IMG/VR virus record: IMGVR_UViG_2541047122_000009
Length of the DNA stretch: 10,826 bases
Source: a virus
Taxonomy: Duplodnaviria; Heunggongvirae; Uroviricota; Caudoviricetes
Strand: one strand, 5' to 3'
How positions within the stretch are numbered: position 1 is the first letter of the stretch; each line of letters opens with the position of its first letter. Below are positions 1 to 6,349 of the stretch, one piece after another. The notes below the pieces were generated by a model. The model saw only the letters and a program-made list of their open reading frames with translations. It had not been told where the DNA came from and did no database searches. Position numbers and translations under genes: made by a program.

Positions 1-147
1 TGTCATATCCTGCTGTTTCAGCATGTCTTTTTCCCTTTTCCGGTTAACGTGACATACCAATAACTCTTGTCGAAAAAGCCAGCAAGTTGAAAGACCGGTA
101 TTAATAACCACCAGCGAATTTATTGCGCTGCTGTATATTACGGACAC

Positions 148-168
148 AAAAAAACCACCTTCCGGTGG
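148..168 (-). terminator. Putative rho-independent terminator downstream of the ORF6N gene
   Basis: Plus strand reads aaaaaaa-CCACC-ttcc-GGTGG; on the minus strand this is a 5-bp GC stem with a tetraloop followed by a run of seven T. The stem is short, so this is tentative. Confidence 0.4.
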
Positions 169-267
169 CTTCCTTGTGCGAAAAAAACTTGCGTTTCGCC
201 TCGCGATACAGCTTTGCGAAGCGTACCGGAATTGAAGCAGTTTATGGCTAAAATTGCAAGAACTTTT

Positions 268-879
268 TTAAAGCTGCATCAGCCTTTCCACCAGTTTATC
301 TCTGCGAACAACAAACCAACCATTGGCTCTCGCCAGTTCCAGCCATGACTCAAGGGAAATAACAATATCATCATCCCGCAACTGAATTGTGGAAACAGTG
401 ACACCGCCTCGCTGATAACAGAGAACTCGCGTGTCGTAACTTTTCTGGCATGCAACTGGCGCTGACGGATCCTTTTGACTGAAATAGCAGTCTTCCAGTT
501 TTTCGAACACTTCCCACGCCTGATCGGTTTCGAGCATTTTTGCGTGACGGGCTGCGCCGCGTTCTGTCCAGAGGATGAGGGAGCGGGCTTTCGGGGAAAT
601 TTGTAACCCTCTTAAAGATGGTTGCAAATTTTGTGAGTTACTTAAAGTAACCCGCAAATTTTGTGAGTAGTTTAAAGCTACCCGCAATTCTTTAAGGTCA
701 TTACCAACAACTTTGAAAAAGTGTTTCCCTTCAACGAAGCGTACTTTGTTCTCATGATGATTCTGGCGAATACGCACCGGCTCAGTGCCGTAAAGCTGCG
801 CCAAAAGTTCGGTGGTAATAACAGGAATCTGGTTATGGGTGATCGGGGAGAGAGTTTCAACAGAAATTTTAGTTGTCAT
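268..879 (-). CDS. ORF6N-domain antirepressor-like protein (Ant/Roi-like), 203 aa
   Basis: ATG at 879..877 preceded by AGAGGG with 7-nt spacing. The N-terminal block VITTELLAQLYGTEPVRIRQNHHENKVRFVEGKHFFKVVGNDLKEL matches my recollection of the ORF6N (phage antirepressor N-terminal) domain. The middle of the protein is encoded by 30-bp in-frame tandem repeats. Confidence 0.75.
   Translation of the reverse strand: MTTKISVETLSPITHNQIPVITTELLAQLYGTEPVRIRQNHHENKVRFVEGKHFFKVVGNDLKELRVALNYSQNLRVTLSNSQNLQPSLRGLQISPKARSLILWTERGAARHAKMLETDQAWEVFEKLEDCYFSQKDPSAPVACQKSYDTRVLCYQRGGVTVSTIQLRDDDIVISLESWLELARANGWFVVRRDKLVERLMQL
594..713. repeat. About four tandem 30-bp units carrying three phased palindromes centred at 614, 644 and 674
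   Basis: Units 624..653 (gcaaattttgtgagttacttaaagtaaccc) and 654..683 (gcaaattttgtgagtagtttaaagctaccc) are near-identical, with degenerate units either side. Palindromes are GTTACTTaAAGTAAC (637..651), GTAGTTTaAAGCTAC (667..681) and GTAACCcTCTTaAAGAtGGTTGC (603..625). Confidence 0.85.
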
Positions 880-1037
880 AATGACGCCCTCTGGTGGTTT
901 CTTAATAACTCACCACCGACGACGCCAATCGTCTGGTGGTGAACTGTGCAGGGTTGGCGTAACCGGGAAACCGACCGGCGCGGATCTCTCCGCCCCCACA
1001 CAGCCCACCATAATTCAGATGTGCGCGTGCATACGAC

Positions 1038-1062
1038 AATAAAAAACACGCTCGCGGCGTGT
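1038..1062 (-). terminator. Putative rho-independent terminator between ninE and the ORF6N gene
   Basis: Plus strand aataaaaaa-ACACGC-tcgcg-GCGTGT; on the minus strand a 6-bp stem is followed by TTTTTTATT. It lies 90 bp downstream of the ninE stop. Confidence 0.5.
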
Positions 1063-1153
1063 ATCTGTCGCGGTCTCTATCCAGGACGCCAATCCCGACG
1101 CCAGATTTTGCTGGCGTTTGAGGAATATAGCCCCGAATAAATCATCACGTCAA

Positions 1154-3203: not shown

Positions 3204-4580
3204 TCATACGTCAGCCCCTTGTGCATATCGTCTGCCACGCGCAGCAGGTGCATTTGATGCTGTGCAAATCTGTCTGGCTTCATCCTGGTCACATGCAACA
3301 AAGTGTCCGTTACAGAACCGCTGGTAAACTGTACCAAGCGAGCCAAAACGGTTTTTCGTCACGATGATTTCAGCAAATGGCGCGGCGCTACTGTTCTCAT
3401 CATATACCGCTTCCCGATAGAGCATGATGATTGAGTCTGCGTCCTGTTCAATGCTTCCTGAATCACGCAAATCTGCGTTTGTCGGGCGTTTGTTTGGTCG
3501 CTTCTCAACATCGCGCGAAAGCTGACTCAGGGAGATAACCGGTGTTTTCAGGTCTTTCGCCATCGCCTTCAGGCTTCCGGAGATGTGAGCAATTGCGAGG
3601 TCGTTGCGGTCTGCTTTCGGCTTCTCAATCAGGCCAAGATAATCCGCCATGATGAGTGACAGGTTTGGATTTTCCTGCTTATGCCGTTCTGCGATTGAGC
3701 GTATTTCTTCGACCGATAACCGCGAAGCATCGACTACCCATACATCCAAATCTGCAAGCTGACTCATGCCGTTAGCAACACGTGCCCAGCCCTCGTCATC
3801 CATCGATGCAGGATTTCGCAGTACGCTAACCGACATCCTCCCGGCGTTGGCAATGCTTCGCTCTGCAATCTGCAATGCGCTCATTTCCATTGAGAAAATC
3901 AATACCCCGCGCCGGACGTCAGAACCAGGAATAACGCGGCTTGCCACACCTTCGGCAATCTTCAGCGCCAGTTCGGTTTTCCCCATACCAGGACGAGCGG
4001 CGATAATCACCAGGTCTTCTGCGTTCATCCCTCCAGTGATAGCGTCAAGCTCTTCGATTCCGGTCTTCAGGGTATCTGACTCTTCTCCGTTCCTCAGACG
4101 CCTGTCAAGCGTGTCAGTGTAGTCAGTGATGATTTCCCCTAACCGTACAGGTTTAACCTCGTCACGGGGCTTTCTGATGGCTGAAAGACGCTTTACAAGT
4201 TCATCCATCGCCTGACTCGATGCGTCGATGGTTCCGCTTTGGATTGGTTCACGCATTTCATCCATGATTTCCAGCACCAGACGGCGGTGATAGTTATCCG
4301 CGACCATTCCGGCATATCCCTTCAGGTTTGCGGCACTCGGGCAGTTTTTGCTGGTCATCAGGATTGACGTGAAATGCTCCTCTCCGCACGCCTCGGCAAC
4401 CATCAGCGCATCGATTAGGTTTCTGTTTCTCGCCTGCTTGCGAATAACCTCGAAGGCTTTCCGGTAGAGCGGAATTGAAAACGCTTCCGGCTCCAGCGTT
4501 GCCAGAACGTCACTGGCGGTTGGAGTTAATCCACCAATCAGCAGGCCACCGATAACGCTAGCTTCGATATCCTGTCTCAT
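3204..4580 (-). CDS. Replicative DNA helicase, DnaB family, 458 aa
   Basis: DnaB-like N-terminus ([13 protein letters not shown]), Walker [13 protein letters not shown], and the DnaB C-terminal block [41 protein letters not shown]. The ATG at 4580 overlaps the O stop (ATGA). Confidence 0.9.
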
Positions 4581-5398
4581 GCAATCCCCCTGTCTGCAAA
4601 CTTCCCTTCCCGAACTCCCGTTAACGAATCTTCCCTCAGCAGGTAATCAAAATCTGCCGTCCAGCCCGTGTCGTTGTCTCCGAAGTAAAACGGCTTGGCC
4701 TGATGCACAAACGCCCTGACATACGCTCTGAAACCGTCCACGTTTGGCGTTTTCAGTTGCGGGATAATTTTCTTCAGGCGGCGTTTTCGTTTCTCGTTGA
4801 CCGCAACAGCGTGTGGAAGTCTGTCACCGACTTCGGTGTTGTAGGCGTTCAGGAAGGATTCGTAGTCGATTCGTTCTGCCTTGCGACGTTCAGGTTTAAC
4901 CTGCCCATCGCCATCCCCGTTAGGGGGTAAGGGGGTATTTGTATTTATTGTCTTTTGTATATTGTCTTTTGTGTTTAGCTGACTTGGCTTATACCCATTA
5001 GCCGACTTGGCTAATGTTTTATTAGCTGTTTTAGCTAATGTTAAGCTGTCCTGGCTAATCCACTGAGAAACCACCTTGTTCACTCCGATTTTCACGCCAT
5101 CAGCAATGAGGAATTTACGCTCAATAAGCTGGCGCTTGGCAGCGCAAACATGAGTGTGATGAATACCTGTCATGGCTGCTATCTGCGTGTTTGTGAGTCG
5201 ATCCATCGGCTTATTGAATCCGTATGTCTTGCGCATGATAGCGAGCATCACCTTCAACTGCCGGACGGTTAAATCAGCCATCAGCAGACTGTCGGTAATC
5301 TCGTTAGCAACGCGCATGAAACCATCTTCGGTATCTGCCACGCGATGCTCCACGACCTCCAGTTGAGGCCTGTAATCAGCTAACTTAACGACGCCCAT
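4577..5398 (-). CDS. O: Replication initiator protein O (lambda O family), 273 aa
   Basis: N-terminal domain [51 protein letters not shown] parallels lambda O as I recall it. RBS AGGAGTGA precedes the ATG at 5398. Iterons and an AT-rich tract are embedded mid-gene, as in lambda. Confidence 0.9.
4921..5060. repeat. Putative replication origin: iterons plus AT-rich tract inside the O gene
   Basis: Two 18-bp iterons, TTAGCTGACTTGGCTTAT (4975..4992) and TTAGCCGACTTGGCTAAT (4998..5015), match at 16 of 18 positions, followed by partial copies. Adjacent are duplicated ATTGTCTTTTGT (4947..4972) in an AT-rich block and duplicated AGGGGGTA (4922..4938). In O-sense the order is iterons then AT-rich, as in lambda ori. 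Confidence 0.6.
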
Positions 5399-5578: not shown

Positions 5579-5875
5579 TCAGAATTGCATATCAATTTGC
5601 TTAAAATCCTCGGTGGCAGCCGGGGATTTTTTCTTTGTGATTTCATCAAGCGCATACTTAAAAGCCCTGCTAATCGGACTGATGTCTGATGCCATTCCGA
5701 AAGCACACAAGACCGAAGCAATAAACCGCCAGTCCGTTCTGCTTATCTTCGATTCATGACAGCCAATCATCTTTGCCAGACCGCGCTGTGTAAGCGTTGA
5801 CAGGTTGATGAGTAAATCTGTTTCTGCGCGATCAACGTCGCGCTGTGATAGTTTGCTGTAACTTGTTCGTTCCAT
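5579..5875 (-). CDS. cII: CII-like transcriptional activator, 98 aa
   Basis: The C-terminus KKKSPAATEDFKQIDMQF matches lambda CII (KKRPAATERSEQIQMEF) as I recall it, with a central HTH-like block. Position immediately downstream of cro and nutR fits. Confidence 0.8.
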   Translation of the reverse strand: MERTSYSKLSQRDVDRAETDLLINLSTLTQRGLAKMIGCHESKISRTDWRFIASVLCAFGMASDISPISRAFKYALDEITKKKSPAATEDFKQIDMQF

Positions 5876-5960
5876 TTCTTAAGATTTCCAATAGTGAATA
5901 GTTAGTTGAAAGGTATGCGTGGAAACGCATATGGCCTTAGTTGGTCAGATATCTTGGGAC

Positions 5961-6006
5961 TCGCTTTTCAGCGACGTAGGACGAATGTCCGTTGTTACAA
6001 AGAGCG
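5961..6006 (-). promoter_or_regulatory. nutR: boxA (5992..6006) and boxB hairpin (5961..5974)
   Basis: Minus strand reads CGCTCTTTGTAACAA (boxA-like), a 17-nt spacer with a small hairpin, then TCGCT-GAAA-AGCGA (5-bp stem, GAAA loop). It starts 11 nt after the cro stop. Confidence 0.6.
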
Positions 6007-6016
6007 GCTCCGCTTA

Positions 6017-6232
6017 TTAAGCGGCTTTGTGCTCCGGCGGGAACACGTCATCAAGACTTACTTTTGCGCCTAACTTGTTTAGACACGCAACAAGAGCACG
6101 GCATGTTTTAAGGTCTGGGAAGCGACGACCAGATTCCCAATGTCCGATAGCTCCCTGTGTGCATCCAACTGCCTTAGCAAGTGTTGTTTGAGAGATATTC
6201 AGTGACTCTCGATATTTTCGTAGGTTGCTCAT
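6017..6232 (-). CDS. cro: Cro-like HTH repressor, 71 aa
   Basis: ATG at 6232..6230 with GGAGGG upstream; HTH LNISQTTLAKAVGCTQGAIGHWESGRRFP closely parallels the CI HTH. The tracked 128-aa ORF is an upstream extension through the operator region. Confidence 0.85.
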   Translation of the reverse strand: MSNLRKYRESLNISQTTLAKAVGCTQGAIGHWESGRRFPDLKTCRALVACLNKLGAKVSLDDVFPPEHKAA

Positions 6233-6349
6233 ATGCCCTCCATAGTAACCACGAATAAAAAAATACAATATGTACTTCTCAAATACAAGTAAAAATACAC
6301 ATTGTGCATGGATGGTTCCAGTACAGAGCGTAATAATAAGGACATGAAA
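6233..6349. promoter_or_regulatory. Divergent OR operator/promoter region (PR toward cro, PRM toward cI)
   Basis: AATACA(A/C) half-site motif occurs three times (about 6262, 6282, 6293) with a near-palindrome TACAatATGTA at 6264..6274. Candidate PR on the minus strand is -35 TTGTAT (6288..6283), 17-nt spacer, -10 TATTTT (6265..6260). PRM could not be pinned down. Confidence 0.6.

What the first reader, a model, noticed from the sequence alone, without database searches (positions are those of the whole stretch)
594..713. Three phased palindromes with compensatory arm changes inside the ORF6N gene
Within the coding sequence are tandem 30-bp in-frame units, each carrying a palindrome centred on CTTAAAG/TTTAAAG at 614, 644 and 674, exactly 30 bp apart. 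Arms differ between units yet stay self-complementary: GTTAC...GTAAC at 637..651 versus GTAG...CTAC at 667..681 (two full compensatory pair swaps and one T-G pair), and GTAACC...GGTTGC at 603..625. That covariation argues for selection on an inverted-repeat site or RNA hairpin, not just on the encoded decapeptide repeat (LRVALNYSQN / LRVTLSNSQN). The T-G pair works as U-G only in a plus-strand (antisense) transcript. It could be a binding array for a dimeric protein, possibly the product itself, or a structured antisense RNA.
Basis: seen in the sequence. Interest (0 to 1): 0.6.

Follow-up and report, generated by a model that had tools for sequence, protein, structure and literature searches.

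The report
Coding palindrome array in antirepressor gene
The three phased palindromes are real and are the local, triplicated copy of a DNA palindrome found at the same spot in hundreds of related phage antirepressor-like genes; its two arms stay complementary while the encoded peptide changes freely, but there is no sign that it acts as an RNA hairpin or as an operator for the gene's own product.

Summary
Observation confirmed. Window 594-713 holds three in-frame 30-bp units with dyad centres at 614, 644 and 674, inside the ORF6N gene 268-879(-). This gene is a homologue of Gifsy-1 AnrP and lies behind an isrK/orf45-like leader.

The palindrome is a family-wide feature. In 138 unique proteobacterial and 120 unique Gram-positive phage homologues, a palindrome sits at the same place with unrelated arm sequences up to 16 bp. 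A strong palindrome occurs in 75% and 57% of genes, against 4% and 2% after synonymous-codon resampling and 0% elsewhere in the same genes. All 11 core pairs covary.

- Mismatches show no G·U excess on either strand.
- Symmetry runs into the dyad centre.
- There is no antisense promoter or terminator.
- No second copy exists in the genome.
- Identical palindromes occur with unrelated recognition-helix cassettes.

The segment encodes the low-confidence tip between two strands of a winged-HTH-like fold, and copy number varies from 1 to 4.

Best reading (0.42): a DNA-level coding palindrome kept symmetric by arm-to-arm template switching and amplified by slippage. A functional cis-acting DNA site remains a live rival.

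The parts
268..879 (-). ORF6N-domain gene (203 aa), homologue of Gifsy-1 AnrP and of the Stx-phage 'Ant'. It hosts the palindromes.
   Evidence: Pfam ORF6N, E=5e-19, residues 12-115. 52.7% identity over 200 aa to Gifsy-1 STM2616 (H61), which is itself ORF6N. Annotated as 'putative Ant antirepressor' in Stx2 phage 1717.
655..693 (.). Palindrome unit C, dyad centre 674. Core is GAGTAGTTTAAAGCTACCC at 665-683. Encodes LRVALNYSQN (first unit in gene order).
   Evidence: Read directly. The same core is found in homologues with 1-2 units.
625..663 (.). Palindrome unit B, dyad centre 644. Perfect 15-nt core GTTACTTAAAGTAAC at 637-651. Encodes LRVTLSNSQN.
   Evidence: Arms 625-643/645-663, 19 nt, 84% complementary. 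Phage 1717 has this unit twice and pPE4 lacks unit C.
597..631 (.). Palindrome unit A, dyad centre 614. Core is AACCCTCTTAAAGATGGTT. Encodes LQPSLRGLQI (last, most diverged unit).
   Evidence: Arms 597-613/615-631, 17 nt, 88%. The core AACCATCTTTAAGAGGGTT (sense strand) is shared by many homologues.
624..687 (.). 30-bp in-frame tandem repeat. Copy number is 1-4 among close relatives.
   Evidence: TRF: period 30, 2.1 copies, 85% matches. Variable-segment lengths in homologues.
876..1049 (-). orf45-like leader ORF. Its TGA stop overlaps the ATG of the ORF6N gene (ATGA at 879-876). True start codon not verified.
   Evidence: ORF list. The same arrangement is described for Gifsy-1 orf45/anrP (PMC4825925). 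A C4-like fold lies at 932-1015(-), 66.7 bits.
1041..1117 (-). isrK sRNA gene with its promoter-like site (1153-1124) and terminator (1062-1046). Context only; not complementary to the palindromes.
   Evidence: Rfam RF01394, 74.7 bits. Promoter and terminator scan. Duplex test negative.

Best explanation
What it is (shown). The three units are a tandem, in-frame amplification of a 'coding palindrome'. This is a dyad-symmetric stretch of duplex DNA, with a core of about ±13 bp centred on the second base of one codon. It sits at one fixed place in ORF6N (AnrP/'Ant'-type) phage genes, in the segment between the two beta strands of a winged-HTH-like fold. That segment is hypervariable in sequence and length, and the model has low confidence there.

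How the pattern is kept (inferred). The symmetry is a DNA-level property. When one arm mutates, the change is either reverted or copied into the other arm by replication template switching between the arms (quasipalindrome correction). The arms therefore drift in sequence but stay complementary, and the encoded residues are dragged along as reverse-complement codon pairs (V<->N/Y/H/D, L<->Q/E/K, T<->S, S<->R, P<->G). The protein tolerates this because the peptide appears to be a flexible loop tip. Slippage between the AAATTT(T)G-flanked units changes the copy number (1-4).

On this reading the 'compensatory' changes are footprints of arm homogenisation. No RNA hairpin or operator function is required, although one is not excluded.
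For: (1) Position-specific and family-wide.
- 140 of 208 strong odd palindromes in the proteobacterial genes fall 31-75 nt upstream of the WTERG anchor, almost all centred on codon position 2.
- In the Gram-positive phage set, 104 fall in the same bin.

(2) Beyond the peptide.
- Mean 11.85 of 16 Watson-Crick pairs, against 6.82±0.17 after synonymous resampling and 4.26 elsewhere in the genes.
- Best score >=8 in 75% vs 4% vs 0% of the proteobacterial set, and 57% vs 2% vs 0% of the Gram-positive set.
- Perfect arms reach 16 bp (L066, L042).

(3) Covariation. 89.9% of cells are paired, against 57% when shuffled and 28-37% when slid. All 11 pairs change on both sides.

(4) Strand-symmetric, so not RNA.
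- No G·U excess on either strand.
- Sense and antisense stability are equal.
- Symmetry persists at d=1-2, where a hairpin cannot pair.

(5) Permissive host segment.
- AF2 pLDDT is 78.9 overall but below 50 at residues 75-91.
- Strands 54-58 and 100-104 flank the segment.
- Homologues carry 1-4 units.

(6) An intermediate is seen: GTT/AAC (VTLSN), then GTG/AAC (L056, one arm changed), then GTG/CAC (VTLSH).

(7) Published precedent. Perfect inverted repeats in Proteobacteria are conserved more than expected, which the authors attribute to template switching (PMC5941160). Coding palindromes exist in Nematomorpha mitochondrial genes (PMC6649704).
Against: - Retention across homologues only about 35-40% identical (Proteobacteria and Firmicutes phages) is long for an element with no function. 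Published correction rates, recalled from memory, are only of the order of the point-mutation input for a 30-bp palindrome.
- The dyad centre prefers A/T over symmetry. Central Leu is TTA in 46 of 48 cases (TTA is 19% of Leu codons in these genes). Gln is CAA 10: CAG 0 and Asp is GAT 5: GAC 0, although CAG and GAC would extend the palindrome. A C-G pair at d=3 is present in 68 of 87. Both features look selected.
- Comparable palindromes are absent from other parts of these genes, so the site is special.
- Template switching was not observed, only inferred.
- The 39-nt windows used were chosen for being palindromic. The unbiased tests are.
Confidence: 0.42

Rival explanations
1. A functional cis-acting DNA element. 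The inverted repeat is selected as a duplex or cruciform-type site. It could be a structure-specific or symmetric binding site (possibly for the winged-HTH product itself, giving autoregulation or a roadblock as reported for HK022 Roi). It could also be a hairpin-prone recombination hotspot that promotes cassette exchange in these mosaic genes.
For: - Deep conservation of position in two phyla of hosts.
- Strand-symmetric constraint reaching the dyad centre.
- A/T-rich centre and a C-G pair at d=3.
- The fold resembles MerR-like/winged-HTH domains, which bind palindromes as dimers.
- Tandem amplification would multiply sites.
- The wing segment and the alpha2 cassette re-assort among close relatives, and window vs pPE4 has a mosaic junction at the repeats.
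- The O gene of the same window shows that in-gene arrays of dyad repeats (ori iterons, 4977-5059) are an established lambdoid design.
Against: - No half-site is shared across the family, although the helices flanking the wing are nearly invariant.
- Inner arms differ between the three units of one gene.
- Identical cores occur with 8-10 unrelated alpha2 helices.
- The site is single-copy in the window and in the whole proPhi2 genome.
- Most arms are 7-13 bp, which is short for cruciform extrusion.
- Gifsy-1 AnrP, the only studied member, has only a 5-bp-arm remnant.
Confidence: 0.3
2. An RNA hairpin. It would act either in the anrP mRNA (pause, RNase III or stability element) or in a plus-strand antisense transcript.
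For: - Structure is conserved without sequence, with strong covariation.
- Hairpins of about -12 kcal/mol on average.
- In this window the + strand folds better (-41.5, z=-3.9) than the mRNA strand (-32.4, z=-2.4).
- The gene lies in an sRNA-controlled operon (isrK/C4-like).
Against: - No G·U over A·C excess on either strand, and transversion mismatches are as frequent as chance predicts.
- 33 windows favour the sense strand, 34 the antisense and 20 are equal.
- Complementarity extends to d=1-2, inside any possible loop.
- No promoter or terminator in or near the repeats.
- No Rfam hit at threshold (best is rivX, 21.7 bits against a gathering score of 100).
- No special complementarity to IsrK or the C4-like RNA.
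Confidence: 0.1
3. Protein-level selection or chance. The decapeptide repeat is what is selected and the palindromy is incidental.
For: The peptide lies in a DNA-binding-like domain, and some pattern is conserved ([LHN]R at the start, S/L then Q/V at the end).
Against: - Synonymous resampling removes most of the complementarity (6.82 vs 11.85 pairs; >=8 in 4% vs 75%).
- Synonymous third positions of Val, Arg, Leu and Ser track their partner bases.
- Rare codons (CGA, AGA, TTA) are used where they pair.
Confidence: 0.03

Closest known systems
Quasipalindrome / inverted-repeat arm homogenisation by template switching (Proteobacteria: PMC5941160; yeast coding sequences: PMC8604942)
   Same: Short inverted repeats stay perfect or near-perfect over evolutionary time. 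Changes appear symmetrically in both arms. Multinucleotide, protein-altering substitutions arise inside coding sequence.
   Different: Here one orthologous site is retained across a whole gene family in distant phage groups, with complete turnover of arm sequence and tandem amplification. Template switching itself was not demonstrated.
Coding palindromes in Nematomorpha mitochondrial genes (PMC6649704)
   Same: Inverted repeats are embedded in functional protein-coding sequence, so both arms must encode acceptable peptide.
   Different: Those are long (up to 284 bp), numerous per genome, and cover conserved protein regions. Here there is one short element (15-33 bp) at a hypervariable loop of one phage gene family.
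Lambdoid ori iterons inside the O gene (present in this window at 4977-5059)
   Same: Tandem units lie inside the coding sequence of a DNA-binding protein, each unit has internal dyad symmetry, and copy number varies among relatives.
   Different: Iterons share one half-site sequence (TTAGC...GCTAA) and have irregular spacing (20-24 bp). They belong to a Phage_rep_O initiator. The ORF6N units are exactly 30 bp, in frame, with different inner arms.
HK022 Roi binding a site within its own gene (Clerget & Boccard 1996, J Bacteriol 178:4077; recalled from memory, paper not held)
   Same: A nin-region 'Bro-network' DNA-binding protein with an intragenic binding site.
   Different: HK022 Roi is Rha-like plus ANT, not ORF6N. 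Its gene has no inverted repeat, only two 13-nt direct repeats 30 bp apart.
Gifsy-1 isrK-orf45-anrP-isrJ operon (PMC4825925)
   Same: The window has the same layout: isrK, a leader ORF with an AUGA overlap, and an ORF6N AnrP homologue.
   Different: The paper's main text contains no occurrence of 'palindrom' or 'inverted repeat'. Gifsy-1 has a single unit with a weak 5-bp-arm palindrome.

Membership tests
ORF6N domain proteins (Pfam PF10543) | Match to the ORF6N profile above the gathering score | tested here: met
   68.8 bits against a cutoff of 27.8, residues 12-115. The match is about 20 aa longer than in Gifsy-1 AnrP (12-96), which equals the two extra units.
Gifsy-1-type isrK-orf45-anrP module | isrK sRNA gene with promoter and terminator directly upstream | tested here: met
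   RF01394, 74.7 bits, at 1041-1117(-). Promoter-like site at 1153-1124 and terminator at 1062-1046.
Gifsy-1-type isrK-orf45-anrP module | Leader ORF whose stop overlaps the anrP start (AUGA), and an AnrP homologue | tested here: met
   ORF 876-1049(-) and ATG at 879. 52.7% identity to STM2616. The layout is described in PMC4825925.
Gifsy-1-type isrK-orf45-anrP module | isrJ sRNA at the 3' end | tested here: inconclusive
   No isrJ hit at the gathering score. The scan flagged one terminator-like stem-loop (155-168, + strand); reading its reverse complement as a minus-strand terminator below the stop codon is my own.
Cis-regulatory RNA hairpin or antisense RNA | Covarying base pairs | tested here: met
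   All 11 pairs change on both sides, and 89.9% of cells are paired.
Cis-regulatory RNA hairpin or antisense RNA | G·U tolerated far more than A·C on the transcribed strand | tested here: not met
   9 vs 8 (proteobacterial set) and 7 vs 14 (Gram-positive set), beside 30 and 20 transversion mismatches. Stability is equal on both strands.
Cis-regulatory RNA hairpin or antisense RNA | Loop free of pairing constraint; own promoter and terminator for an antisense RNA | tested here: not met
   Complementarity at d=1-2 is above the resampled expectation. No promoter-like or terminator-like site in 594-713. No Rfam match at threshold.
Operator or iteron array for a dimeric sequence-specific protein | Units share one half-site sequence; further copies at regulated promoters | tested here: not met
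   Inner arms are GTTAC, GTAGC and CCATC in the three units. No other copy in the window or in the whole proPhi2 genome.
Operator or iteron array for a dimeric sequence-specific protein | The site co-varies with the recognition element of the binding protein | tested here: not met
   The same 19-nt core occurs with 8-10 different alpha2 cassettes.
Operator or iteron array for a dimeric sequence-specific protein | Physical binding | not testable with these tools
   Needs EMSA or footprinting.
Coding palindrome maintained by template switching | Inverted repeat inside a CDS, symmetric also at synonymous sites, with no strand bias | tested here: met
Coding palindrome maintained by template switching | Elevated, exonuclease-sensitive correction of single-arm mismatches | not testable with these tools
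   Needs a reversion assay in wild-type vs xonA exoX hosts.

The most novel reading that the evidence does not exclude
The palindrome is a selected, built-in diversity and recombination device. It would be a hairpin-prone dyad placed exactly in the wing-tip-coding segment of a winged-HTH phage regulator. Through template switching, slippage and break-induced exchange it would generate multi-residue changes and cassette swaps in a specificity-determining loop. Alternatively, it serves as a structure-specific cis site bound by the protein it encodes. Either way it would be a conserved cis element whose sequence is free but whose symmetry is selected, shared by ORF6N antirepressor-like genes of Gram-negative and Gram-positive phages.
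Probability: 0.2. Interest if true: 0.8.

Novelty: new variant of a known kind. Interest (0 to 1): 0.62.

Why it matters
Inverted repeats rarely overlap coding sequence because they constrain the protein (PMC6649704). Here a whole family of phage regulators carries one at a fixed site: 1,935 clusters at 50% identity, including the 'Ant' genes of Shiga-toxin phages and Gifsy-1 AnrP. Its sequence turns over completely and it dictates which amino-acid pairs the loop may contain.

If it is mutationally self-maintained, it is an unusually clean natural case of arm-to-arm homogenisation shaping a protein over deep time. It is also a warning that covariation alone does not prove an RNA structure or an operator. 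If it is functional, it is an undescribed cis element in the control or evolution of antirepressor modules that influence prophage induction. Synonymous recoding would test either case directly.

Tried and rejected
- **IsrK / C4-like RNA pairing with the repeats.** The repeat window is among the weakest duplex partners in the gene and is no better than shuffles.
- **Rfam.** Nothing at threshold in 450-900.
- **HK022 roi as a direct homologue.** Its N-terminus is Rha-like and it has no inverted repeat. The paper could not be retrieved, so this stays an analogy recalled from memory.
- **Extra synonymous constraint downstream of the palindrome (a hidden RNA or DNA element).** Raw third-position identity is higher downstream (0.635 vs 0.44). 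This vanishes once amino-acid identity is controlled (same-codon fraction 0.53 vs 0.49).
- **Remote operator of the immunity switch.** No inverted repeat in 5850-6330 and no consensus copy elsewhere.
- **Internal promoter or terminator.** None found.
- **AF2 with a shallow alignment.** It failed (pLDDT 42), so the run with a 73-sequence alignment was used instead.
- **Sequence search of PDB.** Nothing found.
- **Literature.** The 'ORF6N' and antirepressor/palindrome searches returned no title or abstract describing this element; only one hit was opened.

Full report
**1. The observation**

Reading window 590-720 confirms every coordinate given. CTTAAAG lies at 611-617 and 641-647, and TTTAAAG at 671-677, so the dyad centres are 614, 644 and 674. 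The arms are GTTAC/GTAAC (637-641/647-651), GTAG/CTAC (667-670/678-681) and GTAACC/GGTTGC (603-608/620-625).

Units B and C differ at five bases. Four of them form two symmetric pair swaps (T-A to A-T, A-T to G-C) and the fifth turns C-G into T-G.

The symmetry is longer than reported: arms of 19 nt (625-643/645-663, 84%) and 17 nt (597-613/615-631, 88%). TRF calls a 30-bp repeat at 624-687.

The units are in frame in the 203-aa gene 268-879(-) and encode LRVALNYSQN, LRVTLSNSQN and LQPSLRGLQI.

**2. The gene and its setting**

The product carries an ORF6N domain. Directly upstream on the same strand lie three features:
- An isrK sRNA gene (1041-1117, 74.7 bits) with a promoter-like site and a terminator.
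- A C4-like fold at 932-1015.
- A leader ORF whose TGA overlaps the ATG of the ORF6N gene.

This is the layout of the Gifsy-1 isrK-orf45-anrP operon, in which IsrK switches on translation of orf45 and of the antirepressor-like AnrP (PMC4825925). Gifsy-1 STM2616 is 52.7% identical to the window protein and is itself ORF6N. In Stx2 phage 1717 the orthologue is annotated 'Ant', between ninE and roi. The main text of that paper contains no occurrence of 'palindrom' or 'inverted repeat'.

**3. Copy number**

Phage 1717 has one more copy of unit B, and Actinobacillus phage pPE4 lacks unit C. More distant Stx-phage homologues (phi346, Lys19259Vzw) have a single unit, and it is still a palindrome with other arms: GAGTAGTTAAAAGCTACTC and GGTAACTAAAAGTTACTC. 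Across 160 fetched loci the segment between KHFFK and LWTERG holds 1-4 units.

**4. A family-wide palindrome**

*Position.* In 138 unique proteobacterial sequences, strong odd palindromes cluster 31-75 nt upstream of the WTERG codons (140 of 208). Almost all are centred on the second base of a codon.

*Arm diversity.* Arm sequences are unrelated between lineages and reach 16 perfect base pairs, for example AATTTGCGACTGACTT-a-AAGTCAGTCGCAAATT and CCGAGCAGAGGGTCTT-a-AAGACCCTCTGCTCGG.

*Unbiased statistic.* The best palindrome score in the variable segment has a median of 9.8. It is >=8 in 75% of sequences, against 4% after resampling synonymous codons with the peptide fixed, and 0% in an equal span of the 5' part of the same genes.

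*Pair counts.* In 87 distinct 39-nt windows, 11.85 of 16 positions are Watson-Crick paired, against 6.82±0.17 when resampled and 4.26 elsewhere.

*Formal covariation count on 55 windows.* 89.9% of cells are paired, against 57% when shuffled and 28-37% when slid. All 11 pairs change on both sides. These windows were chosen as palindromes, so carry the weight.

*Synonymous sites follow their partners.*
- Val GTA/TAC 18, GTT/AAC 13, GTG/CAC 7, GTC/GAC 1, against 7 non-matching cases.
- Arg is CGA, CGG, AGA or AGG where it faces TCN (60 of 60), although CGC and CGT make up 61% of Arg codons in these genes.

*Consequence for the peptide.* The peptide is constrained to reverse-complement codon pairs: V with N/Y/H/D, L with Q/E/K, T with S, S with R, and P with G.

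*Gram-positive phages.* The same holds in 120 unique homologues from Gram-positive phages. These are the prototype ORF6N+ORF6C 'antirepressors' of lactococcal phages and relatives of the *Bacillus anthracis* phage Carmel_SA homologue. 104 palindromes fall in the equivalent bin, and 57% score >=8 against 2% resampled and 0% control. Arms reach 15 bp, as in AGAACCACTTCGATAATATCGAAGTGGTTCT.

*Exceptions.* Some lineages lack the palindrome (Brevibacillus Davies, *C. difficile* CDKM9) or keep only a remnant (Gifsy-1: ACCCG-aaacaat-CGGGT).

**5. RNA or DNA?**

If an RNA helix were selected, G·U should far outnumber A·C on the transcribed strand. Counted once per lineage and position:

| Set | Sense G·U | Antisense G·U | Transversion mismatches |
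|---|---|---|---|
| Proteobacterial | 9 | 8 | 30 |
| Gram-positive | 7 | 14 | 20 |

This is the spectrum of random asymmetry. Other evidence points the same way:
- Predicted hairpin stability favours the sense strand in 33 windows, the antisense in 34, and neither in 20.
- Complementarity extends to d=2 (0.70-0.97 observed against 0.25-0.55 expected) and partly to d=1, inside any possible loop.
- No promoter-like or terminator-like site lies in the repeats.
- No Rfam model reaches threshold.
- IsrK and the C4-like RNA are not complementary to the repeats.

**6. An operator for the product?**

*Evidence against sequence-specific self-recognition.*
- The three units of this gene have different inner arms.
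- No half-site is common to the family, although the flanking helices are nearly invariant.
- Identical 19-nt cores occur with 8-10 unrelated versions of the putative recognition helix alpha2, which is itself a swapped hypervariable cassette.
- The element is single-copy in the window, which includes the immunity region, and in a complete lactococcal phage genome.

*A caveat on the first point.* The bona fide ori iterons in the O gene of this same window (4977-5059) share one half-site, TTAGC...GCTAA. Yet they also show one C-G to T-A symmetric difference between units. Unit-to-unit covariation alone therefore does not discriminate between the models.

**7. Best explanation and rivals**

The data show a strand-symmetric, DNA-level dyad. 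It is kept through complete sequence turnover and sits in a coding segment that tolerates almost any peptide and 1-4 copies.

The simplest process producing exactly this is arm-to-arm correction by template switching at a quasipalindrome, plus slippage between the AAATTT(T)G-flanked units. Lavi et al. attribute the excess conservation of perfect inverted repeats in Proteobacteria to this process (PMC5941160). Coding palindromes are documented elsewhere (PMC6649704). A one-arm intermediate is visible: GTT/AAC, then GTG/AAC, then GTG/CAC. I give this explanation 0.42.

Arguments against a purely mutational account:
- The depth of conservation.
- The A/T preference at the centre even where G/C would extend the symmetry (TTA 46 of 48; CAA 10: CAG 0; GAT 5: GAC 0).
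- The C-G pair at d=3.
- The absence of such palindromes elsewhere in the genes.

A selected cis-acting DNA site (structure-specific binding, cruciform or recombination hotspot) therefore remains a serious rival at 0.30. An RNA hairpin gets 0.10. Protein-level selection or chance is excluded (0.03).

**8. Novelty**

I found no description of this element. It is a new variant of known kinds: coding palindromes, template-switch-maintained inverted repeats, and in-gene dyad arrays such as ori iterons. It is notable for its phylogenetic breadth and for dictating the amino-acid pairs of a protein loop.

Noticed in passing
window 932-1117 (-): Rfam hits to isrK (1041-1117, 74.7 bits) and C4 antisense RNA (932-1015, 66.7 bits) lie directly upstream of the ORF6N gene. 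A promoter-like site is at 1153-1124 and the isrK terminator at 1062-1046. This is a Gifsy-1-type isrK-orf45-anrP module inside an Stx-phage-like nin region.
   Followed up: partly
window 742-789 (-), codons 31-46 of the ORF6N gene: A second hypervariable cassette covers the putative recognition helix alpha2 (EPVRIRQNHHENKV vs EINNIKVNYTRNSE and others). Identity drops to 3-6 of 15 nt between otherwise about 90-100% identical genes, and the cassette re-assorts freely with the palindrome segment.
   Followed up: partly
window 4977-5059: Four iteron-like direct repeats (16-22 nt, spacing 23, 24 and 20 bp), each with internal dyad symmetry (ATTAGCC..GGCTAAT), lie inside the Phage_rep_O gene 4577-5398(-). 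This is presumably the lambdoid origin. One C-G/T-A symmetric difference is seen between units.
   Followed up: partly
window 9948-10006 (+): Lambda cIII thermoregulator element (RF01804, 88.5 bits) at the start of a cIII-like ORF.
   Followed up: no
window 476-879 vs L002 (Actinobacillus phage pPE4) 1501-2082: Mosaic junction at the repeats. From the repeats to the 3' end of the stretch aligned (window 476-690) the two genes are about 97-100% identical; the full-length match is 83% in DNA and 86% in protein. The 5' third (714-879) is visibly much more diverged. An E. coli-type gene in a phage deposited as infecting Actinobacillus is itself odd.
   Followed up: partly
L005 (HK022) 5257-5305, inside roi: Two 13-nt direct repeats 30 bp apart (CGGTCAACACAAA / CGTTCACCACAAA) lie in the ANT-domain part of roi. 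They could be the published Roi binding site, but this was not checked.
   Followed up: no
window 145-180: The scan flagged one stem-loop, CCACCTTCCGGTGG, at 155-168 on the + strand. Read as its reverse complement, it is followed by a T run and would be a minus-strand terminator about 100 nt below the ORF6N stop codon, where isrJ sits in Gifsy-1. The scan did not call it on the - strand, and no isrJ hit reached the Rfam gathering score.
   Followed up: no
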